Shown here in pieces: positions 22,032-47,511 of a DNA stretch of 64,000 nucleotides. The notes beneath the pieces are model-generated. The model was given only the letters and a program-made list of their open reading frames with translations. It searched no databases and was not told where the DNA came from. The stretch lies in assembly GCA_011911785.1 (NCBI GenBank), contig GCA_011911785.1_4084.1; one strand, written 5' to 3'. The position numbers and the translations under genes are program-made. The first letter of the stretch is position 1; every line of letters begins with the position of its first letter. This stretch comes from a phage.

Positions 22032-22304
22032 ATGGACTATCGAGTACTGAATAGAACATATAAAGCTTTATACAAAACATATATTGAAAGTAAAGTACAT
22101 AATCCTATCATTTATAAAAATCCAGTTTATATTATATGGAATGAATATTTTACAATGATTCAAAATTACTTTTACTCTAACGAAATCTTTATAGATGGTG
22201 AAATGCGTAAGCTAACACGCGTTGATAGTATAGGTGGTGAAATTGTGTTATTCTATACTGATTCTATTATTGGACAACAATCTATAAATTTAGAGATATT
22301 ATAA
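22032..22304 (+). CDS. hypothetical small protein, family B (~90 aa paralogs)
   Basis: 90 aa; first of five tandem copies. Confidence 0.6.
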   Translation: MDYRVLNRTYKALYKTYIESKVHNPIIYKNPVYIIWNEYFTMIQNYFYSNEIFIDGEMRKLTRVDSIGGEIVLFYTDSIIGQQSINLEIL

Positions 22305-22570
22305 TGAATTATAAGGATTTACATTTCACCTATAAACTAACATTTTATATGTATCGTTACGCTGATAACAACTTAATGGATAATGCATTTTATCATCGTT
22401 TGTGGAGTGATTATATAAAATCTTTACGTGAACATTTTATAGGTACTATAATTCAATACGAAGGTAAAACAGTAAAAATATTTCAAGTTGATAGTTACAA
22501 CGGGGATCTATGCTTCAGGGGTAGAGATTCTAGTGATGGATTACATGAGATTTATATCTATGAATTATAA
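22304..22570 (+). CDS. hypothetical small protein, family B
   Basis: 88 aa; MNYKDLHFTYKL N-terminus, REHFIGTIIQYEGK motif. Confidence 0.65.
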   Translation: MNYKDLHFTYKLTFYMYRYADNNLMDNAFYHRLWSDYIKSLREHFIGTIIQYEGKTVKIFQVDSYNGDLCFRGRDSSDGLHEIYIYEL

Positions 22571-22835
22571 GGATTTACAATTCACGTACAAAATTCTTCA
22601 TGAACAATATGAACGTGGTGAAGGAATATTAACTTACGATGAACGAGATTTTTTTCTTACATTGTGGTGTGAATATTTGGCAATGATTAACGAGATTTTT
22701 GTTGATAAAGAATATATGATTGACGACATGACTGTACGTATTATCAGAATTAAAAGTTATAATGGAAGTCTTGTTGGAATTTACTATAACAATGAAAAGG
22801 CGAAAAGCGGATTTGTTGATTTGGAGTACCTATGA
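22561..22835 (+). CDS. hypothetical small protein, family B
   Basis: Start moved to ATG 22561 (MNYKDLQFTYKI, DNA-level similar to start of 22304 copy); 91 aa. Confidence 0.6.
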
Positions 22836-23095
22836 ACTATCATGATTTACAATTCACATATCAACTTTTATATGATGATATGAATAACGAATTAGGTTTC
22901 TACTATGAAGTACGTAATAAAATATGGTCAAATTATCTATCTGAGATACAACATCATTTTATAGGACTTCCAATACGTAGAAATAATAAAAACTATCGTT
23001 GTACTGATGTAGTAAGTCATAGAGGTAGGTTGCGTTTAGAATTCTACCGCAGAGACGGGGACTTCATTGGTATAAATTTACTGGATTTTAAATGA
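22832..23095 (+). CDS. hypothetical small protein, family B
   Basis: 87 aa; MNYHDLQFTYQL, QHHFIGLPI motif. Confidence 0.65.
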   Translation: MNYHDLQFTYQLLYDDMNNELGFYYEVRNKIWSNYLSEIQHHFIGLPIRRNNKNYRCTDVVSHRGRLRLEFYRRDGDFIGINLLDFK

Positions 23096-23379
23096 TGAAA
23101 AACAACTTAAAGGAAATACAAGTATTTTATAGCTTCTTATACTTGTCATATGTAACAGATGAGTACTATGAAAGTGTGTATTATTTTTTATGGCAACATT
23201 ACCGTACTATAGTAAGAGATTTATATATAGGAAAATCTATCATATCCAATGGTGAAAAATGTACCTGTACTGATGTTGTTAGTTTTAATGGTTCTTTAAC
23301 ACTGTGTTTCAGATGCGATAATAATAGTGGGTCATTTTCATTAAACGTATATCAGTTAGAAGGAATAAATTTTGAATAA
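23092..23379 (+). CDS. hypothetical small protein, family B
   Basis: 95 aa; RDLYIGKSIISNGEK motif. Confidence 0.65.
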   Translation: MMKNNLKEIQVFYSFLYLSYVTDEYYESVYYFLWQHYRTIVRDLYIGKSIISNGEKCTCTDVVSFNGSLTLCFRCDNNSGSFSLNVYQLEGINFE

Positions 23380-23572
23380 GTGTCCATATTGTAACAGTAC
23401 TCAATTAGCTCGTTTCCGCTTAGATTCAGACTGGGCCACTGGTGCTGGGGATTTCTTTCCCATCAATGATGATGCGGAATACACTGAAGAACAGCACAAA
23501 GATTTTGATAAATCATGGCGACCAGACATTGAGTGCATTTATTGCCTTAATTGTGAGCGTGTACATGACTAA
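23372..23572 (+). CDS. zinc-ribbon protein
   Basis: 66 aa; CPYC ... CIYCLNC cysteine pairs. Confidence 0.55.
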   Translation: MNKCPYCNSTQLARFRLDSDWATGAGDFFPINDDAEYTEEQHKDFDKSWRPDIECIYCLNCERVHD

Positions 23573-23828
23573 AGCTGAACTAATAGTTCATACATATAAA
23601 ATGATAGCCAGTACTGAGTTATCCTGTGGTGCAGATAATCCAGTACTGGACTATTTTATAGAATCTTTGAAAGAACATTATATTGGTAAATCACTGATTC
23701 TTAATAATATTAATTTCACTGTAAAGGATGTAGCACCTGGAAAAAACGTACTAATAGTATGTGTTACTTCATCTGATAACCCAGTATACCCAATAACAAT
23801 AATTTTTGAGGTATTAGGTGATTTATGA
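23565..23828 (+). CDS. hypothetical small protein, family B
   Basis: Start at ATG 23565 (ATGACTAA overlap with upstream stop); KEHYIGKSLILNN motif. Confidence 0.55.
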   Translation: MTKAELIVHTYKMIASTELSCGADNPVLDYFIESLKEHYIGKSLILNNINFTVKDVAPGKNVLIVCVTSSDNPVYPITIIFEVLGDL

Positions 23829-24115
23829 ATATCATTTTAATACAGAAAACATATTCTATATTGGTGAAAGATTATTCCATTACTTTCGATTCACAAGAAA
23901 GTGCTCTACATAACCTATACAAAAACGTAACACAAGAATACAGAAATATGTTTTCTGACTTAGTAGTAGGAAGGTATTTCAGTACTAGAAAATATCCAAA
24001 ACTTCAAGCAGAGGATGTTTCTTTTTATTTCAATGGTCATATTACTATTCATAGTTTAGACCAAAATTCACCAACGTACTTAAACTTTTCATTCGATGAG
24101 GTAACCTTTTTATGA
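23825..24115 (+). CDS. hypothetical small protein, family B-like
   Basis: 96 aa; similar size and architecture. Confidence 0.55.
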   Translation: MNIILIQKTYSILVKDYSITFDSQESALHNLYKNVTQEYRNMFSDLVVGRYFSTRKYPKLQAEDVSFYFNGHITIHSLDQNSPTYLNFSFDEVTFL

Positions 24116-24294
24116 GAACATTATTTTTTATCTGGAGTCTTTTTTCTCTTGCAGTACTGACAGTTGCAGGTGCTTATTCATTTTCAACAATGAATACATG
24201 GTATATCAATTTACTATTTCCAATTGTCGGTGTAGGTTTAGGATTTACTTTACATAGTGTATGTAAGGATTTCAATGACAAATCAAACAAATGA
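24112..24294 (+). CDS. small membrane protein
   Basis: 60 aa, two hydrophobic helices. Confidence 0.45.
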   Translation: MRTLFFIWSLFSLAVLTVAGAYSFSTMNTWYINLLFPIVGVGLGFTLHSVCKDFNDKSNK

Positions 24295-24559
24295 AGTACT
24301 TATTGCTGAAACAATGAAGATGATTTATAGTATTACTACAGCACAGAATATGCCCTATCCCATTAAGTCTTTATTGAGGACCGTGTATCTTGTGACTGTG
24401 CAGGAATACTATAAATCCAAGCACAAAAGCATTATTAGTGTTTATCGTGATTATGAAAGGATTCGTATTTTGTACTGGAACAAGAACCGAGTACGTTCTG
24501 AATGTGACCTTGCGGACTTCAAATTAGAGAATCTTTATTGTTATAAAGCGGGACAGTAG
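24257..24559 (+). CDS. hypothetical protein
   Basis: 100 aa ORF; start uncertain. Confidence 0.45.
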   Translation: MYVRISMTNQTNEVLIAETMKMIYSITTAQNMPYPIKSLLRTVYLVTVQEYYKSKHKSIISVYRDYERIRILYWNKNRVRSECDLADFKLENLYCYKAGQ

Positions 24560-24577
24560 TATAAGTAGTGATATAAT
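24550..24577 (+). promoter_or_regulatory. candidate promoter with extended -10
   Basis: GGGACA, 16-nt spacer, TGATATAAT (TATAAT 24572-24577); upstream of GTG start 24618 with AAGGAG RBS. Confidence 0.4.
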
Positions 24578-24617
24578 TGTTGGTATGGAATAATAACTAA
24601 CACAAGGAGCGTGTAGA

Positions 24618-25346
24618 GTGATTGACCGTATCAGATTTGCCAGCGAGTTAGCAAACCAATTAAACATTGCAAATTTCCAAATGCTAACATCCGTAATGGC
24701 AGAACATGCAACTGCATATTCAGTAAGTGGTGTCCAATGCGGACAAGAGAATTTACTAGCTGATGTATACAGTGAAGTGCAAGGTAAACAATATTCAGTC
24801 AAAACATACAAGGATAAGTTTGTTAGTCTGTATATGAACGGCGATATTGAAGAAGAACGTAAGTTTACCGATTTTATTATTGAACGCCGTGTATCAGGTG
24901 TGTCAAACCCGAATGCTGCAAGTGATGTAGTATTTGATGAAGTACTGAAAGATATATACGAAAATGAAGCGAAAAGTAAGAATCATTACAATGTACGTGA
25001 AACTAACACAGTGCTCTTGGGATATGATGAAGACGAATTTTTCTATTATTTCCGTATAACTGAAGTACCTTTTGATTATAAAAAACCACATACCACATGT
25101 GCTCGTGAATTTACTGAAAAGAGTAAAAACTACAAAAAGCACGAAGGCAATCGTTGTAGTGTAAATGGTTATGATGAGAATGGTGTACACATTTATGAAT
25201 GGGTACATCCGAACTGTCAGACTTACACACGTTGCCTTAAAAAGAGATATAATTTAGAAGAACATGAATCTTTCTACTTCAAAGTTAAGAAGCAAGATTA
25301 TAACAGACCAGACGATTCTGAATTACTTGGTATGATTTACTTCTAA
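24618..25346 (+). CDS. hypothetical protein
   Basis: 242 aa; GTG start 8 nt after AAGGAG. Confidence 0.6.
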   Translation: MIDRIRFASELANQLNIANFQMLTSVMAEHATAYSVSGVQCGQENLLADVYSEVQGKQYSVKTYKDKFVSLYMNGDIEEERKFTDFIIERRVSGVSNPNAASDVVFDEVLKDIYENEAKSKNHYNVRETNTVLLGYDEDEFFYYFRITEVPFDYKKPHTTCAREFTEKSKNYKKHEGNRCSVNGYDENGVHIYEWVHPNCQTYTRCLKKRYNLEEHESFYFKVKKQDYNRPDDSELLGMIYF

Positions 25347-25354
25347 GGTAAGTT

Positions 25355-25633
25355 ATGAATTTACAAAGAGATGTGTGGACATATGAATATCTTTTAGAAC
25401 TTTATGGTGATATGTATCTTAAAAATAAACCATACATAGACGATATAAGGGCTATGATAGATGATTTTTCTTCTGAGTTTATTCCACTTTATACTAATAA
25501 AGAAGTTACACATAAATCAATGAATAAATCAGGTATTATTGATGAAATTGATTTTGATACACATGGTGTGTATTTTTATATTATTTTCTCCAATGATACT
25601 GTTGGTATATACACGTATAAAGAATTAAAATAA
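25355..25633 (+). CDS. hypothetical protein
   Basis: 92 aa ORF followed by terminator. Confidence 0.55.
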   Translation: MNLQRDVWTYEYLLELYGDMYLKNKPYIDDIRAMIDDFSSEFIPLYTNKEVTHKSMNKSGIIDEIDFDTHGVYFYIIFSNDTVGIYTYKELK

Positions 25634-25639
25634 GTACAG

Positions 25640-25665
25640 GCCAGCATGGATTGCTGGTCTTTTTT
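25640..25665 (+). terminator. rho-independent terminator
   Basis: Stem GCCAGCA/TGCTGGT then CTTTTTT. Confidence 0.65.
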
Positions 25666-25676
25666 GTAGGTACATT

Positions 25677-25976
25677 ATGGACAAAATACAATTAGTTAGT
25701 AGTACGATAACAATGCTTGCTGATGTTGCCAGATGGAGCAGTGGTGGTTCAGTTAGTACTATGCTCGGTATACTCACGCAATACACCTATACCTGCAATG
25801 CAATGTTATATGGTAAGGAAGTTGAAATTGATGATCCCTATGGAATTCCCATATCATATGACCGAGGTGTAATAAAAAGAGTTACTCTGAGACTAACATA
25901 TCATCCATATTTTGTAGTAGAACTTCCTGATGGAAAATTAAGAGAATATGTTGCTAAAAGGTTAAAACTAAAATGA
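25677..25976 (+). CDS. hypothetical protein
   Basis: 99 aa ORF. Confidence 0.55.
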   Translation: MDKIQLVSSTITMLADVARWSSGGSVSTMLGILTQYTYTCNAMLYGKEVEIDDPYGIPISYDRGVIKRVTLRLTYHPYFVVELPDGKLREYVAKRLKLK

Positions 25977-26551
25977 ATATTGTAGAATTAAGTACTAAGC
26001 TGATTACTATGCGTAACGAGTGGTACAATTGGTATTATAACGGTACTGACATGGATTTTTCAAAATATCCATTTATGGAATCAGGATGTGATTCAAGATA
26101 CCGCTGGTTGAGTAAAGATGATTCTGGTTTACATATTCGAGTTGATGATAGTGGTCAGGGAATTATAAAAGATTTACTTCAAGTTGAAGAACTCGTCCAT
26201 GATGAGTGGTGTGATAATGATCCATACCTAGGAAATATAATTTATGTAACTGAAGATGATTGTATATTCGTCATTCAGCGTCATGGTGATTCTATGTTTT
26301 ATATAGCAGACAGCAGTACACCTGAAGGTGCAGCATCAGATGGTCTTATTCCTAAGATTAATATATTAGATTTTGGCTTACCTGAGCACTTCCAGATGAG
26401 TACTCTATTCGATATTCCACCGTTTGAGTTTTTTGAAGAATTTAAATTGTACTACAGTGAACTTCAAAAATTGAGTACCGAGAGTCGTATTGAAATAACA
26501 GTCAGGTACATGGACGGGGTAAAATTAACCGACACGGGGATAGAATTTTGA
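25973..26551 (+). CDS. hypothetical protein, family A
   Basis: 192 aa; motif PEHFQMSTLF. Confidence 0.65.
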   Translation: MNIVELSTKLITMRNEWYNWYYNGTDMDFSKYPFMESGCDSRYRWLSKDDSGLHIRVDDSGQGIIKDLLQVEELVHDEWCDNDPYLGNIIYVTEDDCIFVIQRHGDSMFYIADSSTPEGAASDGLIPKINILDFGLPEHFQMSTLFDIPPFEFFEEFKLYYSELQKLSTESRIEITVRYMDGVKLTDTGIEF

Positions 26552-27237
26552 TTAAAGACTTAGACCGAATTTTGTATGTACTAAGGGGTGTAATTACTTT
26601 ACAACCACAGATTAACCGCATGGAGAGAGCCTTTGAATTAAAATCAAGAGAAACTCCATATTCACATATATCAAATGTAGTTGGTTCATTCTGCTCTGAA
26701 GACTCTGCATATGATATATATGTGTGTGAAGTACAGCCCAGTAATGATCTTGGTTTTGCAATCTTCGATAAAAATCAAGTACTGGTCAGTATGTTTCAGT
26801 GTAATAATCCTTTCTGGAAAACATGCCTGTACCCTGATTGGGCTATGCTTGACCCTACGAATAGTAAGATTAAAGTATATGACTCTAAGAATGAAGAAGT
26901 TGTTATTGATTTAGATGAATCAATGACAGAGGAAGAACACTTCCAGCTTATGATGATGCGTGCGATGCCAGACTATGAAGCAATGATTAACACAGTACAA
27001 TACATTAAGGATACGATGAGATCATTGTGTAATCATGAGTTTTGTCATCCAGTATCGTATGAACATTTGGATTTAGATTTCAGTACTATCAAGTTTAAAG
27101 ATAGTGTTATTGAATATATCCAAGAGAACACTAAATTTGATTTTATTAGTACTATGATTAATAATCCTGATACAAATTTCAGACGACAGTACAATGAGTC
27201 TTTATCTAATGGACGTGATACCAGTTGGTGGAAATAA
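26548..27237 (+). CDS. hypothetical protein, family A
   Basis: 229 aa; motif EEEHFQLMMM. Confidence 0.6.
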   Translation: MIKDLDRILYVLRGVITLQPQINRMERAFELKSRETPYSHISNVVGSFCSEDSAYDIYVCEVQPSNDLGFAIFDKNQVLVSMFQCNNPFWKTCLYPDWAMLDPTNSKIKVYDSKNEEVVIDLDESMTEEEHFQLMMMRAMPDYEAMINTVQYIKDTMRSLCNHEFCHPVSYEHLDLDFSTIKFKDSVIEYIQENTKFDFISTMINNPDTNFRRQYNESLSNGRDTSWWK

Positions 27238-27238
27238 T

Positions 27239-27502
27239 ATGAATATCCAAGATAGATTGCAATTGTTGCACACACTTGAAGAAGCTGCTTTTGAACTTGT
27301 TAATAAAATTGCACAAGAACTCCCAAAAGGAACCAACATTCGTGTTCGTGAAATGGATTATTTAACGGGAGAAATTGAAGAAAAAGTTCTAACAGTGATC
27401 AAAGTAACATACTATGAATCAGAGTTATCAATTCAATGTAAGTCAGATAATGGTTACGTTTCCTACTATGGCACAGATGTAGATATAGAGGTAATTAGAT
27501 GA
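27239..27502 (+). CDS. hypothetical small protein
   Basis: Start moved to ATG 27239 just after upstream stop; 87 aa. Confidence 0.5.
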   Translation: MNIQDRLQLLHTLEEAAFELVNKIAQELPKGTNIRVREMDYLTGEIEEKVLTVIKVTYYESELSIQCKSDNGYVSYYGTDVDIEVIR

Positions 27503-28644
27503 GTAATTTACGAGAAATATACAATGATTTAATGGAACTATGTGAATCTAATGATGCATTTTTCTATATAGATCACACAAGCCCAGGTGGTGGTTTATAC
27601 CGTGTATTCACCTATCGTCTGGCATCTTATACTGATTTCACAAATAAAAATGCACTAGAAACTCGTGGTTCTATGTGGGAAATTGATTCCAACGGAATTA
27701 TGATTCGTTGTGCAGCACGTACAATGAAAAAGTTCTTCAATGCATATGAAAACCCTTACACAATGTTCAGTACTGATACTACCTGTGATGATATTGCGGT
27801 TGTAATGCCTAAGCTAGATGGTTCTATCATCAGCACATTCCGTGATAACGATGGTGAAATCCGTTGTAAATCACACACTTCGTTATCGTCTGACCATGCT
27901 ATTAACAGTACTCGCCTTTTGAACGAGAACCAAAATCTCTATCAATACATTGATGAAGCAGACCGTTTGGGCTATACTGTGAATCTGGAATACACAAGCC
28001 CAGAGTATCGAATTGTGTTACCATATCAGGTGGAACAGTTATTTGTTCTTAACGTTCGTCATCGTATTAGTGGTGAGTTGTTATGCGGTAAAGCACTACG
28101 TGATAAGTTTCCATGCCTTTCACAGTACAGTACTAATATGACAGGTAATGACATTCATCATACATTCCCGATTATGCCTACATTTAAAGAGTCAATCGAT
28201 AAAGTACGTTCTATGCTTGACATTGAAGGTTTTGTGTGTATAATGAAAGATGGTACAATGTGCAAAATCAAAACTGACTGGTATTGCTCTTTGCATTTAA
28301 CAAAAGATTCCATTCTTATTGATTCCCATTTATATGAAGCTGTACTGACTGGTGCAAGTGATGACTTAAAACAATTGTTCAGTACTGATACATATGCAAT
28401 GGATAAGATATTAAGAATGGAACAATTGGTATTTTCGTGCTATAATGCTTTACAAGATGAGGTAGAAAGCTTCGTCCATGCATACAAGCACTTAGAGCGA
28501 AAGGAATTCGCACAAAAGGTTCAGCAAGATTTACCTAATGTATTGAACCGACAAGGCTTGGCCTTTGCGTTGTACAATGGCAAAAGTGTCGATTATAAAG
28601 AGACTTTACTAAAGTACTACAAAGATGTACTAAAGGATTTTTAG
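27499..28644 (+). CDS. rnlA: RNA ligase 1 (T4 RnlA-like)
   Basis: 381 aa; N-terminus and KxDG motif (VVMPKLDGSIIS) align with remembered T4 Rnl1 (NLMELC, YRxFxYxxASYxDF, RCxARxMxKFFN, MKDG, KIKxDWY). Confidence 0.9.
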   Translation: MSNLREIYNDLMELCESNDAFFYIDHTSPGGGLYRVFTYRLASYTDFTNKNALETRGSMWEIDSNGIMIRCAARTMKKFFNAYENPYTMFSTDTTCDDIAVVMPKLDGSIISTFRDNDGEIRCKSHTSLSSDHAINSTRLLNENQNLYQYIDEADRLGYTVNLEYTSPEYRIVLPYQVEQLFVLNVRHRISGELLCGKALRDKFPCLSQYSTNMTGNDIHHTFPIMPTFKESIDKVRSMLDIEGFVCIMKDGTMCKIKTDWYCSLHLTKDSILIDSHLYEAVLTGASDDLKQLFSTDTYAMDKILRMEQLVFSCYNALQDEVESFVHAYKHLERKEFAQKVQQDLPNVLNRQGLAFALYNGKSVDYKETLLKYYKDVLKDF

Positions 28645-28673
28645 TACTAACTAGCCCAGCACAAGGAGAAGTG

Positions 28674-28928
28674 ATGGCTAAACCTAAGTATAAAAATGAT
28701 GGTTCCCTTTCTCCTACTGAGTTCAGGAAAATACAACAAGAAATCGATGATTTACAGCACAAACGCTCAATGAAAGGTGTGAAGATTAGTAAGAAGCGAA
28801 TCGAGAATACTTTTGGGTGTAGTAGTACTGAATATAAGAAGAAAAGGAAACCAAAGGATGTTAAGCCGAGAATACATGATGTAACTCGCTATACATCAAA
28901 ACGTGAAAATAAATTCGATCCACTATAA
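28674..28928 (+). CDS. small basic protein, hypothetical
   Basis: AAGGAG RBS; ATG 28674 preferred over GTG 28671; Lys/Arg-rich. Confidence 0.5.
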   Translation: MAKPKYKNDGSLSPTEFRKIQQEIDDLQHKRSMKGVKISKKRIENTFGCSSTEYKKKRKPKDVKPRIHDVTRYTSKRENKFDPL

Positions 28929-28937
28929 GGAGTTCAT

Positions 28938-29174
28938 ATGAAAGTTGAAGTTCAGCATAGTATTGTTCAGGATATGTCAGTGGTTAAGTTTCTTTCTCTG
29001 AAAGATTACTTCAGATGTATCAAGTTCCTTGAAGAATCTCAATTACAGTGGACCCCCTTAAAGTACAGTTCATCCAATGACACTGCTAGTATTCGTTGTG
29101 ATGAAGCTGTACTTGTAAAAATCTCCAAGCGATTTGGAGTTGGGAAATACAATGAAAAACAATCATTCAAGTGA
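28938..29174 (+). CDS. hypothetical small protein
   Basis: 78 aa ORF with GGAG RBS. Confidence 0.5.
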   Translation: MKVEVQHSIVQDMSVVKFLSLKDYFRCIKFLEESQLQWTPLKYSSSNDTASIRCDEAVLVKISKRFGVGKYNEKQSFK

Positions 29175-29406
29175 TTTGTTATATTATAAAGTACTATCAG
29201 AATGTTTGACGGATATATTGTACCGTGAGAGTAATACTCTACGTGAAAAATATATTAACAAAAGAGTACGTTATAAATCATCTTATGATGGGATGAATGT
29301 TTATGGTAAAATCACTAATGTATATGTAGATGATGATTTTACATTGAATATCATTGTCGATAATTGTATTAGTATCTCAATTGATGATATTATTGAGGTA
29401 ATCTAA
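29134..29406 (+). CDS. hypothetical small protein, family B
   Basis: 90 aa; LREKYINKRVRYKSSYDG motif; start uncertain. Confidence 0.5.
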   Translation: MELGNTMKNNHSSDLLYYKVLSECLTDILYRESNTLREKYINKRVRYKSSYDGMNVYGKITNVYVDDDFTLNIIVDNCISISIDDIIEVI

Positions 29407-29717
29407 TGAATAAAGCATTAAAAGAACTTAATAATTTAATGAATGCAGAAATTGAATTAACTAATACTATTTCTGAAATTGTTCATGATATGATTACACA
29501 ATACAAGAAATCACTCATTGGTAAGAAAGTTGAATGCTGGGATTACAACACTAAAACATGGTTCGAAACTATCATTAGTGATGTTAATGTTAAATTTCAT
29601 GTAGTTACTCATCACATTTCTGACGAGTGCTATGTAGAAGTAACTATAGGACACAACACGCGACATGAACGTTTTTCGTGGTACAATCTAAAGAATGTGA
29701 AATTTATTGAGGATTAA
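29406..29717 (+). CDS. hypothetical small protein, family B
   Basis: 103 aa; QYKKSLIGKKVECWD motif. Confidence 0.6.
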   Translation: MNKALKELNNLMNAEIELTNTISEIVHDMITQYKKSLIGKKVECWDYNTKTWFETIISDVNVKFHVVTHHISDECYVEVTIGHNTRHERFSWYNLKNVKFIED

Positions 29718-30650
29718 ATGCCAACTATTACACTAACAGTTGGATTGCCAGGATGTGGTAAAACCACGTGGGCAGTGCAAGAAATTAAAAAAGCAAAGTC
29801 CAAGACTATCAACATCAACCGTGATGATATTCGAGAGTCTATGGCTGGGTCACATGATGCTTATAAATTCACTGATGCGAACGAGAAGTACGTAACTAAT
29901 CAACAGTTCAGTGCAGCAAACGCCGCAGCAGCGAATGGATGGAACATTATTGTGTCCGATACGAACCTGAAACAAGGTTTTCGTGATGAATGGAAACGTT
30001 GGGCTAAAGATAATGGTTATGATTACAAAGAAAAGAACTTCTATGATGATTTTGTGCCTAATGAAGACCGTGGTGCAGATGTTCATGAATTCTTTAAGAT
30101 TAAAGAGTTCGTAAAACTTTGTAAGAAATATAACCTCCAGCGTGAGCGTTCAGTTCAAGATGATATCATTGACACAATGGCAGATACGTACTATTATAGA
30201 AAGGCATTACACATTGGTTACTATGGTAATGCACGTGAAGCTGCTATCATTGTTGATATCGACGGTACTCTTGCTCATAAGTGGGGACGTAACCCGTTTG
30301 ATGAAAGTACTGTCCTTCAGGATACACCAGATGAAGAAGTAATTCTGTCTGTCATTGCTGAGGCTGTTTTCCATAAGCGTAAGGTAATCGTCATGAGTGG
30401 GCGTACTGAAGGGTGTCGTGCTGATACTGAACAGTGGCTTAAGAATTGGGGCATTCCCTACGATGTATTGTTAATGCGAGCTATCGATGATAAACGTCCT
30501 GATGATGTTGTCAAATTCGAGTTGTATATGAATAACGTTGTTAATCATTACGATGTTAAGAAAGTATTTGATGACAGGGCCGCCGTTGTATTCATGTGGC
30601 GTAAGCTACTAGGCTTGAAAGTATTTCAGGTGGAACCTGGACTATTTTGA
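29718..30650 (+). CDS. pseT: polynucleotide 5'-kinase / 3'-phosphatase (T4 PseT-like)
   Basis: 310 aa; P-loop GLPGCGKTTWA, NINRDDIRES, HAD-phosphatase DIDGTLA; aligns along length with remembered T4 Pnk. Confidence 0.9.
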   Translation: MPTITLTVGLPGCGKTTWAVQEIKKAKSKTININRDDIRESMAGSHDAYKFTDANEKYVTNQQFSAANAAAANGWNIIVSDTNLKQGFRDEWKRWAKDNGYDYKEKNFYDDFVPNEDRGADVHEFFKIKEFVKLCKKYNLQRERSVQDDIIDTMADTYYYRKALHIGYYGNAREAAIIVDIDGTLAHKWGRNPFDESTVLQDTPDEEVILSVIAEAVFHKRKVIVMSGRTEGCRADTEQWLKNWGIPYDVLLMRAIDDKRPDDVVKFELYMNNVVNHYDVKKVFDDRAAVVFMWRKLLGLKVFQVEPGLF

Positions 30651-30660
30651 TTATTACAAA

Positions 30661-30688
30661 GGGATCAGTACTGATCCCTTTTCTTTTA
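30661..30688 (+). terminator. rho-independent terminator
   Basis: Perfect palindrome GGGATCAGTACTGATCCC followed by TTTTCTTTT. Confidence 0.7.
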
Positions 30689-30702
30689 ATTTAGGTGATA
30701 TA

Positions 30703-30963
30703 ATGGATAATAGTTATGATGTACATTTCAAACAATGCCAGTTGGTTTTACACTCCCTAATGGAAGAGTTGCGAATCAAGTACATAGGCAAAATTGCTAC
30801 ATGTTTATCAACTGGAAGACGTGGGCAAATTGTAGAGATTTATTATTCTCCACTTAGTGATGAAATTAAAATAAAAGCTAAAATATTCCTAACTGGATCT
30901 AACGATTTCTTGGGTGAACATATGGTAAAAATTATCTCTGAATTATCTATATCGGATGAATAA
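30703..30963 (+). CDS. hypothetical small protein, family B
   Basis: 86 aa; LRIKYIGKIATC motif. Confidence 0.6.
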   Translation: MDNSYDVHFKQCQLVLHSLMEELRIKYIGKIATCLSTGRRGQIVEIYYSPLSDEIKIKAKIFLTGSNDFLGEHMVKIISELSISDE

Positions 30964-30965
30964 AC

Positions 30966-31232
30966 ATGAATATTAATATAGATTTCCAATTTGTTAATTC
31001 ACATATTCAAGTACTGAAAAATTTAGTAAAGCAACTATCAGAAAAATATAAAGATACATATGTTAAATGTGTCTATGATACAAGTGACTGGGAACGCATT
31101 ATTAAAATTGATTCAGTATATCTTGATACTAACAATAATATAGTTGTATCTGGCGTTGATATGTATGGGCATAGATACCAATTCACAACGCGAGCAACAA
31201 TAACTACTGTGGATGGATATGAATACGAATGA
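30966..31232 (+). CDS. hypothetical small protein, family B
   Basis: 88 aa. Confidence 0.55.
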   Translation: MNINIDFQFVNSHIQVLKNLVKQLSEKYKDTYVKCVYDTSDWERIIKIDSVYLDTNNNIVVSGVDMYGHRYQFTTRATITTVDGYEYE

Positions 31233-31518
31233 ATTCCAAGCATTATTGAAAACATTATATCTTCTTAAAGAAGAATCTCTTGCAATGTATAATGAAAAAC
31301 AATACAAGTTTGAAGAACAACTCATTCATTTTCATGATGAATATCTTGACTTTTTGAATAAAAAATACTCAAATGTTCAGTGCAAATATCGAGGTAGTGA
31401 TGTTATTATTACCAAAATCGAATCCAGTACTTACGGATATCCATACCTTTGTTGCAAATATATCCCAAGTAATATAACATTTCGCTCAAGAATGTATTCG
31501 AGGTTTATTTTTTCATGA
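31213..31518 (+). CDS. hypothetical small protein, family B
   Basis: 101 aa; start 31213 or 31219. Confidence 0.5.
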   Translation: MDMNTNEFQALLKTLYLLKEESLAMYNEKQYKFEEQLIHFHDEYLDFLNKKYSNVQCKYRGSDVIITKIESSTYGYPYLCCKYIPSNITFRSRMYSRFIFS

Positions 31519-31796
31519 ATAATGATTCATTGAAGTTTTTTTATTATCATTATCGTATTTTACGTAGTTTATATTTTTCAGAATCCGATGAAAGATTACT
31601 AACATCATTATCAGTACTGATGGATAATTACGAGAACGAATTATCAAAAGTGGTTTTTGGTGTCAATGTTCTAGATGATACCGATTTAACATGGACAATT
31701 ATTGAAGTGGCGACCTGGAATGGTAATATTTTGTACAGGTGCGAACGAGCAGGTTTTTTATGGGATGCAACATATGACGAGATTAGAATTGTATGA
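31515..31796 (+). CDS. hypothetical small protein, family B
   Basis: 93 aa. Confidence 0.55.
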   Translation: MNNDSLKFFYYHYRILRSLYFSESDERLLTSLSVLMDNYENELSKVVFGVNVLDDTDLTWTIIEVATWNGNILYRCERAGFLWDATYDEIRIV

Positions 31797-32073
31797 CAGG
31801 CAAGTGAAATTGATAAGAGATACTCGTCGTTTCTTTCATACTCAATTAGTAGACCCATGTTATGATATTTCCGATTTCCTTGAAACCTATCTCCTTGATC
31901 TAACTACACCACTGCTTAAAAAATACGTAGGCACAAAAGCTATATATCTTGGAAGAGAAGTTGAAATTACCAACATATCATATTCTTATGGGGCATACAT
32001 GTATACGGCAAAATCTGATAATGGACAAAGATATTATGCAATACGATCAAGAGAACTTACGATTATTGGATAG
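31771..32073 (+). CDS. hypothetical small protein, family B
   Basis: Start uncertain (track 31702; internal ATG 31771 chosen); LLKKYVGTKAIYLG motif. Confidence 0.45.
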   Translation, partial: HMTRLELYDRQVKLIRDTRRFFHTQLVDPCYDISDFLETYLLDLTTPLLKKYVGTKAIYLGREVEITNISYSYGAYMYTAKSDNGQRYYAIRSRELTIIG

Positions 32074-32365
32074 GCATCTTGCTATTCTTATCGACCTTGT
32101 GATGAAAAGTGATGTAAAAATTTTTGAAAGTAGATTTCTTGAGGATTATAAAACACAATTACAAGAACTGTACAAAGGTAAAAAAGTATTACTTAGTACT
32201 GGTGACTATGGTAAAATTGAGTACGTGTATTATGAATGGAAAAAGGTTATATATTTTATAAAAACCAAAATAAAATACCAAAATAAAACAAGAACCTATA
32301 AAGCATATTACGATTCAAATGAGATAGAGATTATATATGACCAACACGTTAATAACAAAAAGTGA
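32038..32365 (+). CDS. hypothetical small protein, family B
   Basis: Start trimmed to ATG 32038; ELYKGKKVLLSTGDYG motif. Confidence 0.45.
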
Positions 32366-32660
32366 ATTAGATTATTTGAATTATATAAACAGATACTTTC
32401 TGATTCTATATAATATACTTCTTGAAGAACAATGCACTAAATCAAACCATCAGTTATATAACTATATTAACTGTATAATTAGTGAAATATATGAATCATT
32501 GGAAAAGAGATTTAAGTACAGAACTATTAAGTGCGAAGATGATATTGTATATATTCATGGTGTTTTTGGTACAGGATATGGAATATTCGTTGATTATAAA
32601 ATACACCCATTTGATCCGTACATAGAAAATAGTATGTACATAGAAGAGATTGAACTATGA
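32337..32660 (+). CDS. hypothetical small protein, family B
   Basis: 107 aa. Confidence 0.55.
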   Translation: MTNTLITKSELDYLNYINRYFLILYNILLEEQCTKSNHQLYNYINCIISEIYESLEKRFKYRTIKCEDDIVYIHGVFGTGYGIFVDYKIHPFDPYIENSMYIEEIEL

Positions 32661-32974
32661 CACAAGAAGAATATAATAAATTAATAATGTACGAGAATCA
32701 TTTTAATTATTGTCTGAAATGGTTATTGTACATTGATAACGTTGAGATGGATATGTACAGAAAAGAGGTGAATAAACGTGTTAAAGATTTCTATTACGAA
32801 TTGACTGATCTTTTTTATAATAATGTAGTATATGAAGCAAATACCAGTCGTGATTATGACCTTTATATCAAGCAAATATGGGGTACTGACTACGGTCTGA
32901 TGATTGATTGCAGTACTGGTCCTAATATAGACAGACCCAGTACTACATTGTATCTGGATGAGATTTTCATATGA
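32657..32974 (+). CDS. hypothetical small protein, family B
   Basis: 105 aa. Confidence 0.55.
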   Translation: MTQEEYNKLIMYENHFNYCLKWLLYIDNVEMDMYRKEVNKRVKDFYYELTDLFYNNVVYEANTSRDYDLYIKQIWGTDYGLMIDCSTGPNIDRPSTTLYLDEIFI

Positions 32975-33273
32975 ATGAACTATTACTTTGTCATAAAACA
33001 TACATTATGCTATTCAGAACGTGCCATGATATGCGAATTGAAGGTATACTAGACTACCCAACTATGATGATTAACTTCAGGGTGTTAATGGATTCATATT
33101 CACAATCTGTCATTGATGCATTTGAAGGTAGAGAAATAAAGTTCAAAAATGCCAGGACAAATAATGAGCTATGTGATACAATTAAATCAGTGGGGATTTC
33201 GGTTCCAAATGTGTACGTAATCCCATTGATGTACGGAAAAGTAGTATCCACTAACGAAATTATTAGTATATGA
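32971..33273 (+). CDS. hypothetical small protein, family B
   Basis: 100 aa. Confidence 0.55.
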   Translation: MNELLLCHKTYIMLFRTCHDMRIEGILDYPTMMINFRVLMDSYSQSVIDAFEGREIKFKNARTNNELCDTIKSVGISVPNVYVIPLMYGKVVSTNEIISI

Positions 33274-33569
33274 TTAAAACATTATATGAAGCAGAAGAAA
33301 CATATAAACTTCTGTGGGAAACTTTTATTTTTGACAAATACTATAATAGAACTGAATGGTTAGAGGTAAGTAAAATATATCTTCAAATTTTAAATGATTA
33401 TTTTTGTCCGTTAGTTGCTGAATGTAAAAATAATCCAATTGAAGAAATTAATATAATCGAAATAGTAGATGGGTTTGGTGCGTGGTTGATATACCAAGAC
33501 AACTATCACTTTTCTAATTATATCGAAGATATCGGTAAAATAACTGTAATTAAAGGAGTCATACTATGA
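33270..33569 (+). CDS. hypothetical small protein, family B
   Basis: 99 aa. Confidence 0.55.
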   Translation: MIKTLYEAEETYKLLWETFIFDKYYNRTEWLEVSKIYLQILNDYFCPLVAECKNNPIEEINIIEIVDGFGAWLIYQDNYHFSNYIEDIGKITVIKGVIL

Positions 33570-34180
33570 TTTATGCACTATACGTACTATACGTACTTGG
33601 TCTGGTTATTGGTTGGTTTTTGGCAAAATCTTACAACCGTAATGCACTGGCATACACAGTATTTGGTATTATTTTTACGCCAGTACTAGAACTAGGTTTA
33701 CTCATTATTATGGGTCGCCGTGACATGACACCAGTCATTGACGATAATCGTGATAAAGCAGTACATGATGTACCAGTTTTTGAAGGATATACGCCAACTT
33801 TAACAGTTGATGACGTTTACATTGATGGTGCTGAAGAAGTTAAATCAGTTCAGGAAGAAGTTGAAGAAGTTCCAGTAAAAGAAGAACCACAACCAAAAGC
33901 ATCAACAACTAAAACAAAAGCAAAAACTTCTAAGAAAACAAAAGGTCGCAAGACTAGCACTAAAAATACCAAAAAAACCAGTACAACTCGCAAAAGCACT
34001 AAAACTGATAAGGAAGCATCTTCCAGTACTACCAGTACTGATGATGGTACAAGCACTGTTCTACTGACAGCAGCAACAACTGCCGCAATTATCAGTACTT
34101 CATCCTATAGCGACTCATCTTCCTCTTATGACAGTGGCTCTTGTGATAGTTCAAGCTCAAGTTCAGGAAGCTGTGATTAA
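33566..34180 (+). CDS. membrane protein with Lys/Thr/Ser-rich low-complexity tail
   Basis: 204 aa; two N-terminal hydrophobic helices; KASTTKTKAKTSKKTKGRKTSTK and Ser-rich C-terminus. Confidence 0.6.
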   Translation: MIYALYVLYVLGLVIGWFLAKSYNRNALAYTVFGIIFTPVLELGLLIIMGRRDMTPVIDDNRDKAVHDVPVFEGYTPTLTVDDVYIDGAEEVKSVQEEVEEVPVKEEPQPKASTTKTKAKTSKKTKGRKTSTKNTKKTSTTRKSTKTDKEASSSTTSTDDGTSTVLLTAATTAAIISTSSYSDSSSSYDSGSCDSSSSSSGSCD

Positions 34181-34524
34181 TGGTTCCGTTATCATCTGAA
34201 CTAAGGTACTTCGAATCTCTCCTTGATCTTCAATCAGAATTCGTTAGTACCTTAAAAAATAAATTAATAGGCAAAAAAGTAAAATTCACTCAAGAGTATA
34301 TTGACCACATCAATAAGGCTAAGGAGGATGAAGTAGATTCTGACTGGATTTATTGTGATGATGAAGCTTCTCATATCAACGAAAATACAGTTATGTTTAT
34401 TACTTTGTTGCGAGTAAAGAATTCATCAATCTATGTTGATGTTGAATATGAAAATCCAAAAAGTTCTGAATGGTACGGATTCACTTACCGTTTAGATCGT
34501 TTAGAACTAATAGAAGAGGAATAA
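34180..34524 (+). CDS. hypothetical small protein, family B
   Basis: 114 aa; LKNKLIGKKVKFTQ motif. Confidence 0.6.
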   Translation: MVPLSSELRYFESLLDLQSEFVSTLKNKLIGKKVKFTQEYIDHINKAKEDEVDSDWIYCDDEASHINENTVMFITLLRVKNSSIYVDVEYENPKSSEWYGFTYRLDRLELIEEE

Positions 34525-34767
34525 ATGATTTTATTTTTTGCTTTGTATGGTGTAGGAGTACTGAGTACATTTATCAGTACTTTTCTTATCATCAATTGGG
34601 GTTCTTTTAAAGATACCCCTACCACAATGATTAATATTAGTACCTGCTCTATGTTATCAGTACTGTGGCCTGTGTCGTTGGTGTATCTTTTCATTTCAAT
34701 CTGTAAAGATTTTTACGATACACTAACAAAATTCAAGAAGAAGAAACATGACAAAGACGGAAATTGA
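34525..34767 (+). CDS. small membrane protein
   Basis: 80 aa, two hydrophobic helices. Confidence 0.5.
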   Translation: MILFFALYGVGVLSTFISTFLIINWGSFKDTPTTMINISTCSMLSVLWPVSLVYLFISICKDFYDTLTKFKKKKHDKDGN

Positions 34768-35002
34768 ACAGTTAAAGATGTTACAATCGTTATCTGATGA
34801 TTTTGTCCAACGTGCTAAGCACAAATATATTGGTCAAGAAATTCTTCTTAAACACTCCAGAGGTTGGCAAAAAATATGCATAAGAGATATGGGAACATAT
34901 TATGGTGATGTGCGATATTACGTAGATTGCTATGTTAATGACCAAATTGCCAATACTCAAGTTGTCACCTATGATAAAATTATATGGATTAAAGAACAAT
35001 GA
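34748..35002 (+). CDS. hypothetical small protein, family B
   Basis: 84 aa; RAKHKYIGQEILLK motif. Confidence 0.6.
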   Translation: MTKTEIEQLKMLQSLSDDFVQRAKHKYIGQEILLKHSRGWQKICIRDMGTYYGDVRYYVDCYVNDQIANTQVVTYDKIIWIKEQ

Positions 35003-44991: not shown

Positions 44992-45048
44992 TATTATACT
45001 TCTCCAAGTAAAGTGCATGAAAATTATCATGCACTATATTATTAAAAA

Positions 45049-47475: not shown

Positions 47476-47511
47476 ATACTTTCCTTTATAAATTGTATTG
47501 TAGTGTTATAT

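What the first reader, a model, noticed from the sequence alone, without database searches (positions are those of the whole stretch)
27499..30650. T4-type RNA repair pair (Rnl1 and Pnk) split by inserted family-B genes
RNA ligase 1 and polynucleotide kinase/phosphatase are the classical T4 countermeasure to host anticodon nucleases such as PrrC. Here they are separated by four small genes (28674-29717), two of them family B, and Pnk is followed by a terminator whose stem is the over-represented CAGTACTG palindrome. Their presence implies the host (or its relatives) deploys tRNA-cleaving defence.
Basis: partly seen in the sequence, partly recalled or inferred. Interest (0 to 1): 0.45.

Follow-up and report, generated by a model that had tools for sequence, protein, structure and literature searches.

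The report
Jumbo-phage RNA ligase/kinase repair operon
This stretch of a jumbo E. coli phage (almost identical to phage A4) carries intact copies of the two well-known T4 enzymes that mend cut transfer RNAs, already annotated and already interpreted this way in the literature, so it is ordinary; the only small new point is that two tiny unknown genes always sit between the two enzymes in this whole group of giant phages.

Summary
Rnl1 (27499-28644) and Pnkp (29718-30650) are real T4-type enzymes with their catalytic residues intact. Four small genes lie between them, and a hairpin terminator carrying CAGTACTG follows Pnk.

The window is about 98% identical to Escherichia phage A4 (Asteriusvirus), where both genes are already annotated. 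An anti-Prr role has been published for the congener phAPEC6, and RNA repair in jumbo phages has been surveyed.

"Split by inserted family-B genes" is only half right:
- T4 itself has four unrelated genes between rnlA and pseT.
- Across RaK2-like jumbo phages the ancestral order is Rnl1-s1-X-s2-Pnk, seen in all 16 viral-contig loci and in 4 of 6 GenBank loci. G17 and K64-1 have lost X.
- s1 (28674-28928) and s2 (28938-29174) are as conserved as the enzymes.
- Only s3 and s4 (29152-29717) belong to the fast-evolving paralogue family. They were inserted between s2 and Pnk in Asteriusvirus and Alcyoneusvirus.

The terminator's conserved stem is GGGAT/ATCCC. CAGTACTG forms its apex in the A4 lineage only; 46 of the 50 copies in the window are inside genes.

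That the host uses tRNA-cleaving defence is a reasonable inference but was not tested. Verdict: already known, low interest. The possible accessory role of s1 and s2 is a modest lead.

The parts
27499..28644 (+). RNA ligase 1 (T4 RnlA/gp63 type), 381 aa: adenylyltransferase domain plus the T4_Rnl1_C domain
   Evidence: Pfam PF09511 (E=1.6e-15) and PF20819 (E=7e-15). PHROG 562 at E=2e-106. T4 Rnl1 structures 2c5u, 5tt6 and 9do4 at E about 1e-55. Residue mapping from T4: K99->K105, R54->R56, K75->K78, F77->F80, G102->G108, E159->E164, E227/G228->E243/G244, K240/K242->K256/K258; K119->H126. Its start overlaps the stop of the upstream gene (ATGA).
28674..28928 (+). s1: conserved, very basic 84-aa protein (pI 10.1, net charge about +13), function unknown, PHROG 15306
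   Evidence: tblastn finds it in 62 phage records, all RaK2-like jumbo phages. Identity is 52-61% in five of six other genera and 32% in K64-1. It always lies directly after Rnl1. Charge computed. It is not a family-B member. No Pfam or PADLOC match.
28938..29174 (+). s2: conserved 78-aa protein with a beta-beta-alpha-beta-beta-alpha (ACT/ferredoxin-like) fold, function unknown, PHROG 14730
29152..29406 (+). s3: family-B paralogue (84 aa from the ATG at 29152; the ORF also opens at TTG 29134), overlapping the end of s2
   Evidence: Held-out family-B profile E=2.5e-3, second best non-member. Shuffle p=0.001. Only 32% identical to its positional counterpart in G17, although the flanking genes are 84-97% identical. 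No counterpart outside Asteriusvirus.
29406..29717 (+). s4: family-B paralogue, 103 aa, PHROG 31355; long N-terminal helix followed by a small beta-rich domain
   Evidence: Held-out family-B profile E=4e-4, best non-member. Shuffle p<0.0005. 38% identical to the G17 counterpart. Only two close homologues in 5.8e9 proteins. AlphaFold2 model pLDDT 67: helix 3-37 followed by strands, with residues 61-91 at low confidence.
29718..30650 (+). Polynucleotide 5'-kinase / 3'-phosphatase (T4 PseT type), 310 aa: N-terminal P-loop kinase and C-terminal DxDxT (HAD) phosphatase
   Evidence: Pfam PF25109 HAD_PNKP (E=1e-41) and AAA_33 (E=6e-14). PHROG 505 at E=5e-94. PDB 1ltq (T4 Pnkp) at E=9e-37 and 4xrp (Pnkp1) at E=2e-29. 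Present: P-loop G9-T16, D36, R39, D180/D182/T184, S227/R229, D262, K266, D285/D286. T4 R126 aligns to Q141, with the clade-invariant R142 adjacent. There is a clade-specific insertion of about 18-32 aa in the kinase domain.
30658..30690 (+). Intrinsic-terminator-like hairpin (10-bp stem, GUAC loop) plus U-tract, closing the operon
   Evidence: Pattern scan. Fold dG -13.5 kcal/mol, z=-3.35. A hairpin with a GGGAT/ATCCC-type stem and a T-run lies at the same place after Pnk in G17, K64-1 and pEa_SNUABM_50. It is annotated as a terminator in G17 (ARNOLD) and in Munch.
30666..30673 (.). CAGTACTG octamer forming the apex of the terminator hairpin; one of 50 copies in the window and the only one with an extended stem
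   Evidence: The apex sequence differs in G17 (TCATATATTGG), K64-1 and the Erwinia phage.

Best explanation
This is the RNA 'healing and sealing' operon of a RaK2-like jumbo phage. The window is essentially Escherichia phage A4, genus Asteriusvirus.

Proposed mechanism, by homology with T4:
1. A ribonuclease cuts a tRNA anticodon loop or another RNA, leaving a 2',3'-cyclic phosphate and a 5'-OH.
2. The C-terminal DxDxT phosphatase domain of Pnkp (nucleophile D180) removes the 3' or cyclic phosphate.
3. The N-terminal P-loop kinase domain of Pnkp (K15, general base D36) phosphorylates the 5'-OH.
4. Rnl1 is adenylylated on K105, transfers AMP to the 5'-phosphate and reseals the break. Its T4_Rnl1_C domain directs it to tRNA anticodon loops.

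The genes are packed end to end, from at least 27194 to 30650. They are probably transcribed as one unit that stops at the hairpin at 30658-30690.

The gap between the two enzymes is ancestral, not a disruption. In the whole clade the order is Rnl1-s1-X-s2-Pnk. Asteriusvirus lost X and gained two members of a rapidly diverging small-protein family (s3, s4) between s2 and Pnk.

Shown here: homology, intact catalytic residues, synteny, the insertion history and the terminator-like structure.
Inferred: enzymatic activity, tRNA as the substrate, co-transcription and a counter-defence role.
For: - Family assignment and motif conservation.
- Near-identity to phage A4, where both genes carry these annotations.
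- Same gene order as T4 (rnlA, four small genes, pseT).
- Cassette Rnl1-s1-(X)-s2-Pnk in G17, K64-1, pEa_SNUABM_50, XaC1, Munch and GAP32, and in 16 of 16 IMG/VR loci.
- Of 27 neighbourhood genes, only six are conserved beyond the genus: Rnl1, s1, s2, Pnk, a 242-aa gene and a phosphatase.
- Family-B profile hits occur only in the Asteriusvirus and Alcyoneusvirus loci, including ORFs between s2 and Pnk in K64-1.
- Tight junctions with Shine-Dalgarno-like sequences.
- Terminator.
- Literature: the T4 Rnl1 C domain confers tRNA-repair specificity and R54 and K75 are essential (PMC6379707). [quoted passage not shown]
Against: - No activity, expression or phenotype data exist for this phage.
- T4 K119 is His (H126) here and in six of the seven jumbo-phage orthologues compared; it is Lys in XaC1 and T4. 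From my own recollection of Wang et al. 2003 (JBC 278:29454), K119 is an essential residue, but I could not read that paper here.
- T4 Pnkp R126 has no exactly aligned arginine. The clade-invariant R142 is offset by one residue, next to an insertion of 18-32 aa.
- No tRNA gene lies in the window, and no host anticodon nuclease was examined.
- Some tRNA-targeting defences, such as P2 OLD, make lesions that T4-type ligases cannot restore (PMC12445682).
Confidence: 0.8

Rival explanations
1. The cassette has four or five parts. On this reading s1 (basic, possibly RNA-binding) and s2 (ACT-like) are dedicated accessory factors of the repair enzymes, for example substrate recruitment, regulation, or neutralising a nuclease. 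The pair alone would then not be the functional unit in these phages.
For: - s1 and s2 lie between Rnl1 and Pnk in every locus examined: 6 GenBank genera plus 16 IMG/VR loci.
- They are as conserved as the enzymes (s2 60-73%). Nearly all other small neighbours are not conserved beyond the genus.
- s2 abuts or overlaps the start of Pnk in 14 of 16 loci, which suggests translational coupling.
- s1 has pI 10.1.
- Both families are restricted to this clade.
Against: - The linkage may be no more than inherited synteny in one clade. The family was never seen in an independent genomic context, so there is no independent co-occurrence signal.
- No s2-Pnk or s2-Rnl1 fusion proteins exist.
- In T4 the genes in the same position (alc, two spanins, pseT.1) have nothing to do with RNA repair.
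- Asteriusvirus and Alcyoneusvirus tolerate 0.6-0.8 kb of insertion between s2 and Pnk.
Confidence: 0.2
2. The enzymes are active, but their main in vivo job is not to counter PrrC-type anticodon nucleases. Alternatives are repair of other RNA damage (toxin or HEPN RNases, colicin-type tRNases, the phage's own nucleases), processing of phage RNAs, or, for Pnkp, 3'-phosphate removal on DNA.
For: - The pair is present in 1650 and 2306 phage records across hosts as different as Mycobacterium, Streptomyces, Vibrio and Campylobacter.
- PrrC is described as an 'optional' E. coli tRNase (PMC1950546 abstract).
- Iyer et al. argue that the different ligases in jumbo phages specialise against different RNase effectors (PMC7824862).
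- A SIR2-Nudix-cREC cluster with a predicted cyclic-phosphate-processing domain lies elsewhere in the window.
Against: - The T4_Rnl1_C domain is retained. In T4 this domain confers specificity for tRNA anticodon-loop breaks (PMC6379707).
- The T4 precedent is the only experimentally established role.
Confidence: 0.35
3. The Rnl1 homologue is kept mainly for the second, non-catalytic activity of T4 gp63, which is promoting tail-fibre attachment. On this reading its closeness to Pnk is historical.
For: - T4 rnlA is annotated as 'RNA ligase and tail fiber protein attachment catalyst', and PHROG 562 is filed under 'tail'.
- RaK2-like phages have elaborate fibre sets; the window carries six large paralogous minus-strand genes at 44.6-59.5 kb.
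Against: - Every catalytic residue of the ligase except K119 is invariant across seven genera at only 35-65% overall identity. That indicates selection on catalysis.
- The conserved co-location with a fully intact Pnkp points the same way.
Confidence: 0.08
4. The family-B genes s3 and s4 were selected at this position because they act with RNA repair, for example as inhibitors of host nucleases. On this reading they are not neutral hitch-hikers from a paralogue expansion.
For: - Both Asteriusvirus and Alcyoneusvirus carry family-B-like ORFs at the same site between s2 and Pnk.
- Their very fast divergence (32-38% identity against 84-97% for the flanks) resembles arms-race genes.
Against: - At least 17 further family members are spread over 22-35 kb on both sides of the pair, so the pair is simply embedded in the array.
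- The other four genera do without them.
- No functional annotation, and only a low-confidence structure.
Confidence: 0.07

Closest known systems
Bacteriophage T4 RnlA (gp63) and PseT (Pnkp), the tRNA-Lys repair pathway that counters the PrrC anticodon nuclease (Amitsur, Levitz and Kaufmann 1987)
   Same: - Same two protein families and the same domain architectures (adenylyltransferase plus Rnl1 C domain; P-loop kinase plus DxDxT phosphatase).
- Catalytic residues conserved.
- Same strand and the same order, ligase first and kinase last, with a handful of small genes between them: four in T4 and four here.
   Different: - Only 35-40% identical.
- The spacer genes are not homologous. T4 has alc, two spanins and pseT.1; here they are s1, s2 and two family-B genes.
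- T4 K119 is His here.
- Pnkp carries an insertion of about 18 aa in the kinase domain (18-32 aa across the clade), and the R126 equivalent is shifted by one residue.
- The genome is a 355-kb jumbo phage, not a T-even.
- No experimental evidence here.
Rnl1 and Pnk genes of other Asteriusvirus phages (A4, PBECO4, 121Q, phAPEC6, G17), as annotated in GenBank and discussed for phAPEC6 (PMC7247149)
   Same: - The same locus. A4 is 98.4% identical over 4.5 kb, with 'RNA ligase' and "3'-phosphatase, 5'-polynucleotide kinase" annotated.
- G17 has the same six genes and an annotated terminator.
- The anti-Prr reading is already in print.
   Different: Nothing material. s3 and s4 differ strongly between A4-like and G17-like phages (32-38% identity), and the terminator apex carries CAGTACTG only in the A4 lineage.
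RNA-repair gene sets of jumbo phages surveyed by Iyer, Anantharaman, Krishnan, Burroughs and Aravind 2021 (PMC7824862): ATP-grasp RNA ligases with PNK-HAD kinase-phosphatases, RlaP, cRec and 2H enzymes
   Same: - An Rnl1-type ligase together with a fused PNK-HAD enzyme.
- A cREC-domain gene next to SIR2 and Nudix elsewhere in the window, as they describe.
   Different: In the passages I read, that survey does not mention the small conserved genes s1, X and s2 between the ligase and the kinase. I did not read the whole paper or its supplements.
Bacterial Pnkp1-Rnl-Hen1 RNA repair system (PDB 4xrp, Pnkp1)
   Same: The kinase-phosphatase is homologous over its full length (E=1.6e-29).
   Different: There is no Hen1 methyltransferase here, and the ligase is of the Rnl1 type with the T4 C domain.

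Membership tests
Rnl1 family RNA ligase (T4 RnlA type) | Motif I KxDG with the adenylylated lysine (T4 K99) | tested here: met
   K105-L-D-G-S. It is invariant in all 8 aligned sequences.
Rnl1 family RNA ligase (T4 RnlA type) | [quoted passage not shown] | tested here: met
   R56, K78, F79 and F80 are invariant. Their role in T4 is taken from PMC6379707.
Rnl1 family RNA ligase (T4 RnlA type) | Nucleotidyltransferase motifs III, IV and V (T4 E159, E227/G228, K240/K242) | tested here: met
   E164, E243/G244 and K256/K258 are invariant.
Rnl1 family RNA ligase (T4 RnlA type) | T4 K119, listed as essential in my recollection of Wang et al. 2003 (paper not readable here) | tested here: not met
   H126 in the window and His in six of the seven jumbo-phage orthologues; Lys in XaC1 and T4. 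The neighbouring K124 (T4 K117) is invariant. The consequence is unknown; both residues can carry a positive charge.
Rnl1 family RNA ligase (T4 RnlA type) | C-terminal all-helical domain specific to Rnl1, which confers tRNA-repair specificity | tested here: met
   Pfam PF20819 T4_Rnl1_C, residues 269-367, E=7e-15, above the gathering score.
Rnl1 family RNA ligase (T4 RnlA type) | ATP-dependent sealing of 3'-OH/5'-PO4 RNA ends | not testable with these tools
   Needs biochemistry.
T4-type polynucleotide kinase-phosphatase (Pnkp/PseT) | N-terminal P-loop GxxGxGK[ST] (T4 K15, S16) | tested here: met
   G9-L-P-G-C-G-K15-T16.
T4-type polynucleotide kinase-phosphatase (Pnkp/PseT) | Kinase general base and 5'-OH site (T4 D35, R38) | tested here: met
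   D36 and R39 are invariant.
T4-type polynucleotide kinase-phosphatase (Pnkp/PseT) | Kinase lid arginine (T4 R126) | tested here: inconclusive
   It aligns to Q141. A clade-invariant Arg (R142, motif N-L-x-R) lies one residue away, next to a clade-specific insertion that makes the alignment uncertain.
T4-type polynucleotide kinase-phosphatase (Pnkp/PseT) | DxDxT acylphosphatase motif with the nucleophilic Asp (T4 D165, D167) | tested here: met
   D180-I-D182-G-T184 is invariant. Asp165 is the covalent intermediate according to the abstract of PMC3592404.
T4-type polynucleotide kinase-phosphatase (Pnkp/PseT) | Further phosphatase residues (T4 S211, R213, D254, K258, D277/D278) | tested here: met
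   S227, R229, D262, K266 and D285/D286 are invariant. Pfam HAD_PNKP E=1e-41.
T4-type tRNA repair system (counter to anticodon nucleases) | Ligase and kinase-phosphatase encoded together in one phage, co-oriented and close | tested here: met
   They are 1073 bp apart on the same strand, with tight junctions and a single terminator after Pnk. The arrangement is conserved in 22 loci.
T4-type tRNA repair system (counter to anticodon nucleases) | Restores tRNA cleaved by a host anticodon nuclease and rescues infection | not testable with these tools
   Needs infection assays on prr+ or rloC+ hosts and tRNA fragment analysis.
T4-type tRNA repair system (counter to anticodon nucleases) | The host range includes strains carrying PrrC/RloC-type nucleases | not tested
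'Family B' small-protein paralogues of this window (operational definition: profile seeded on 22032-23379) | Significant match to a family profile built without the candidate | tested here: met
   s4 E=4e-4 and s3 E=2.5e-3, the top two non-members. Shuffle p<0.0005 and p=0.001. s1 and s2 score below their shuffled means, so they are not members. The signal is weak in absolute terms (12-14 bits).
Intrinsic (Rho-independent) terminator | G+C-containing hairpin followed directly by a U-tract downstream of a stop codon | tested here: met
   A 10-bp stem, 4-nt loop, UUUUCUUUU tail, dG -13.5 kcal/mol. Position and stem are conserved in four genera. Termination activity was not tested.

The most novel reading that the evidence does not exclude
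In RaK2-like jumbo phages, RNA repair may be carried out by a conserved four-to-five-gene cassette, Rnl1-s1-X-s2-Pnkp. On this reading the highly basic s1 and the ACT-like s2 are previously unrecognised accessory subunits of the healing-and-sealing machinery, for example tRNA recruitment, allosteric control, or direct inhibition of a host nuclease. s2 is translationally coupled to Pnkp in most genera.
Probability: 0.2. Interest if true: 0.45.

Novelty: already known. Interest (0 to 1): 0.15.

Why it matters
The pair itself adds little. It confirms that Asteriusvirus jumbo phages carry an intact T4-type RNA healing-and-sealing module. That is already annotated in GenBank, and for phAPEC6 it has already been read as a counter to Prr.

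Two points are of modest use:
1. The 'split' arrangement should not be taken as a sign of disruption or of recent insertion. T4 has the same layout, and the jumbo-phage layout is ancestral.
2. Two tiny proteins of unknown function, s1 and s2, are as conserved as the enzymes and always lie between them. That makes them cheap, well-defined candidates for knock-out tests when looking for new players in the tRNA-centred arms race between phages and bacteria.

Tried and rejected
- Homology between the window's spacer genes and T4's alc, pseT.3, pseT.2 and pseT.1. BLASTP gives E>0.2. The s2 profile finds nothing in the T4 locus. The PHROG families differ. BFVD shows no T4 match. Rejected.
- A perfect 12/12 sigma-70 consensus at 28217-28244 inside Rnl1, as an internal promoter for s1 to Pnk. 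It overlies the codons for the conserved L-DIEGFV-CIM ligase motif and is lost in G17 and the other genera. Judged incidental.
- The octamer as a general terminator element. Only 1 of 50 copies has an extended stem and 46 are in coding sequence. Rejected.
- The octamer as a peptide-motif by-product. It occurs in two reading frames (Ser-Thr 26 times, x-Val-Leu 19 times), and it is 13-fold above a synonymous-codon null. Rejected.
- Structured RNAs or tRNAs in or near the cassette. Rfam gave no hit at gathering score or at E<=1, and ARAGORN found none.
- Defence-system homology of any cassette protein. PADLOC found none.
- Function of s2 from its fold. Only generic ACT/ferredoxin-like matches.
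- Distant relatives or fusion proteins of s2. None found.
- Fold of family B. The s4 model is too uncertain in its beta-domain (pLDDT 67), so I ran no fold search on it.
- Literature on the octamer. The search returned only primer sequences.
- Role of T4 Rnl1 K119. The search found nothing, and neither Wang et al. 2003 nor Wang et al. 2007 could be read here.

Full report
**What is there.**
The window is 98.4% identical over the queried 4.5 kb to Escherichia phage A4 (ON286972). A4 is a 355-kb jumbo phage of the genus Asteriusvirus. The window is about 85-87% identical to PBECO4, 121Q, phAPEC6, G17 and their relatives. In the A4 record the two large ORFs of the finding are already annotated, as 'RNA ligase' and '3'-phosphatase, 5'-polynucleotide kinase', with four hypothetical genes between them.

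The ORFs are at the stated coordinates:
- Rnl1, 27499-28644, 381 aa.
- s1, 28674-28928.
- s2, 28938-29174.
- s3, 29152-29406 (the ORF also opens at TTG 29134).
- s4, 29406-29717.
- Pnk, 29718-30650, 310 aa.

**Are they the T4 enzymes?**
Rnl1 matches Pfam RNA_lig_T4_1 and the Rnl1-specific C-terminal domain T4_Rnl1_C, both above the gathering score. It matches PHROG 562 at E=2e-106 and the T4 Rnl1 crystal structures at E about 1e-55.

Pnk matches HAD_PNKP (E=1e-41) and a P-loop kinase domain. It matches PHROG 505, T4 Pnkp structure 1ltq (E=9e-37) and bacterial Pnkp1 structure 4xrp.

I mapped the T4 catalytic residues onto the window proteins. I then checked them in alignments with six other jumbo-phage genera and T4.

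For the ligase:
- Conserved: K99->K105 (KLDG), R54, K75, F77, G102, E159, E227/G228 and K240/K242.
- Different: T4 K119 is His here and in most jumbo orthologues.

For the kinase-phosphatase:
- Conserved: the P-loop, D35/R38, DxDGT, S211/R213, D254, K258 and D277/D278.
- Uncertain: T4 R126 aligns one residue away from a clade-invariant Arg, beside a clade-specific insertion.

None of these is lost.

**Is the 'split' unusual?**
No. In T4 the order on one strand is rnlA, alc, pseT.3, pseT.2, pseT.1, pseT. That is four genes over 1432 bp between ligase and kinase. Those spacers are a transcription inhibitor, two spanins and an unknown protein. They are not homologous to the spacers in this window.

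**What are the four spacer genes?**
They fall into two classes.

*s1 and s2 are conserved.*
- s2 occurs in 71 phage records and s1 in 62. All of these are RaK2-like jumbo phages, nearly all 310-386 kb, infecting Escherichia, Klebsiella, Salmonella, Erwinia, Yersinia, Cronobacter, Pectobacterium, Serratia and Xanthomonas.
- s2 is 60-73% identical between genera. For comparison, Rnl1 is 49-65% and Pnk 42-63%.
- In a 27-gene neighbourhood (24.6-35.7 kb), only six genes are conserved beyond the genus: a 242-aa gene, Rnl1, s1, s2, Pnk and a calcineurin-like phosphatase.
- Four further GenBank genera have the order Rnl1-s1-X-s2-Pnk.
- All 16 IMG/VR loci that encode s2 have the order Rnl1-s1-(X)-s2-Pnk. 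In 14 of them s2 abuts or overlaps the start of Pnk.

*s3 and s4 are different.*
- They are only 32% and 38% identical to their positional counterparts in G17, although the flanking genes there are 84-97% identical.
- They have no counterpart in the other genera.
- I built a profile seeded on a BLAST-linked cluster at 22032-23379 and iterated it with the spacer genes held out. It collects 17 paralogues between 22 and 35 kb and ranks s4 (E=4e-4) and s3 (E=2.5e-3) as the best non-members.
- Composition-preserving shuffles give p<0.0005 for s4 and p=0.001 for s3. s1 and s2 score nothing.
- The same profile hits ORFs only in the Asteriusvirus and Alcyoneusvirus loci. Two of these lie between s2 and Pnk in K64-1.

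The history is therefore as follows. The ancestral cassette was Rnl1-s1-X-s2-Pnk. The lineage leading to Asteriusvirus and Alcyoneusvirus lost X and gained family-B genes between s2 and Pnk. The pair sits inside a larger family-B array, so it was not specifically targeted by the insertions.

**What are s1, s2 and family B?**
- s1 is strongly basic, with pI 10.1 and a net charge of about +13. It has a conserved TPEEhRKI...KRS.KGV...NTFG.SST.YKK core.
- A profile search of 1.8 billion representatives finds three true s2 family members and no fusion proteins.
- s4 is modelled at low confidence (pLDDT 67) as a long N-terminal helix followed by a small beta-rich domain.
- None of the cassette proteins matches a PADLOC defence model.

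**Operon and terminator.**
The gene junctions are overlapping or abutting (ATGA, TAATG, TAAATG), each with a Shine-Dalgarno-like sequence.

The hairpin AAAGGGAUCAGUACUGAUCCCUUU plus a U-tract lies 8 nt after the Pnk stop codon. Its predicted dG is -13.5 kcal/mol with z=-3.35. A hairpin with a GGGAT/ATCCC-type stem and a T-run occupies the same position in G17, K64-1 and the Erwinia phage. It is annotated as a terminator in G17 and in Munch.

The CAGTACTG apex, however, is found only in the A4 lineage.

A perfect sigma-70 consensus inside Rnl1 is a by-product of the codons for ligase motif IV and is not conserved.

**The octamer.**
- CAGTACTG is the most frequent 8-mer in the window, with 50 copies against 0.85 expected.
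- 46 copies lie inside genes, in two reading frames.
- It is 13-fold above a null model that keeps every protein sequence and each gene's codon usage: 46 against 3.5 +/- 1.8.
- It is about five times rarer in the minus-strand block of large genes at 44.6-60.3 kb.
- It also occurs at roughly 0.2-0.5 copies per kb in the G17, K64-1 and Erwinia-phage loci, far above the dinucleotide-shuffle expectation for this window, but not in 14 kb of T4.
- Its presence in the terminator loop looks like one more copy of a genome-wide signal and not a terminator feature. Its function is unexplained.

**Interpretation and literature.**
The mechanism I propose is the T4 one. [quoted passage not shown] Rnl1 then seals them through a lysyl-AMP intermediate, with the C domain targeting tRNA anticodon loops (PMC6379707; PMC3592404 abstract).

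This reading is already published:
- For jumbo phages in general (PMC7824862).

Whether this phage's hosts carry anticodon nucleases was not tested. The pair is so widespread that it is weak evidence about any one host: 1650 phage records for Rnl1 and 2306 for Pnk. Some tRNA-targeting systems also escape this kind of repair (PMC12445682).

**Verdict.**
The feature is already known and ordinary. The conserved s1/s2 cassette is a modest, testable lead.

Noticed in passing
whole window; e.g. 27768-27775, 28380-28387, 30666-30673: CAGTACTG is the most frequent 8-mer in the window: 50 copies against 0.85 expected, and AGTACT occurs 180 times. 46 copies lie in coding sequence, in two reading frames. 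That is 13-fold above a synonymous-codon null (46 against 3.5 +/- 1.8). The octamer is about 5-fold rarer in the minus-strand large-gene block at 44.6-60.3 kb. It is also present in the G17, K64-1 and Erwinia-phage loci but absent from 14 kb of T4. Individual sites are not positionally conserved between genera. Function unknown; no literature found.
   Followed up: partly
window 61557-63198: A SIR2 (61557-62309), Nudt16-like Nudix (62306-62854) and cREC_REC cyclic-phosphate-processing receiver domain (62866-63198) gene cluster. This is the NAD/ADP-ribose/cyclic-phosphate system described for jumbo phages by Iyer et al. 2021. They suggest cRec may also resolve 2',3'-cyclic RNA ends for ATP-grasp ligases.
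   Followed up: no
window 22032-35002: A large array of at least 17 very divergent paralogues of 85-115 aa ('family B': an N-terminal helix followed by a ..KY.GK.V.. beta-rich tail) surrounds the Rnl1-Pnk operon. Members are not conserved beyond Asteriusvirus and Alcyoneusvirus, and are only 32-41% identical within the genus.
   Followed up: partly
window 31774-32073: This ORF gives the top score to the family-B profile (105 bits for ORF 31702-32073). The A4 record has no CDS between its genes A4_436 and A4_437 at this place, so it is probably an unannotated gene.
   Followed up: partly
window 5187-6599: A 470-aa phage protein with a methyl-accepting chemotaxis protein signalling domain (Pfam MCPsignal, E=7e-37). 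This is unusual for a phage.
   Followed up: no
window 36254-36673: A 139-aa protein with a weak peptidyl-tRNA hydrolase PTH2 match (21.3 bits, just under the 23-bit cut-off). It could be another translation-rescue function.
   Followed up: no
window 24618-25346: A 242-aa protein of unknown function (PHROG 16105, no Pfam match). It is conserved at 58-84% identity in all six jumbo-phage genera compared, and it is one of only six conserved genes in the 27-gene neighbourhood.
   Followed up: no
window 44617-59478 (minus strand): Six consecutive large minus-strand genes are linked to one another by BLASTP. They look like a paralogous set of fibre-like proteins, in the block where AT skew reverses and CAGTACTG is depleted.
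   Followed up: no
window 29718-30650, residues about 103-135 of Pnk: The kinase domain carries a clade-specific insertion of about 18-32 aa relative to T4 Pnkp. It is longest in Xanthomonas phage XaC1 and lies next to the shifted equivalent of T4 R126.
   Followed up: partly
window 76-15467: A long run of tightly packed + strand genes of 150-210 aa, all without annotation. At least two of them (1799-2269 and 3379-4011) are BLAST-detectable paralogues. This may be a second expanded family.
   Followed up: no
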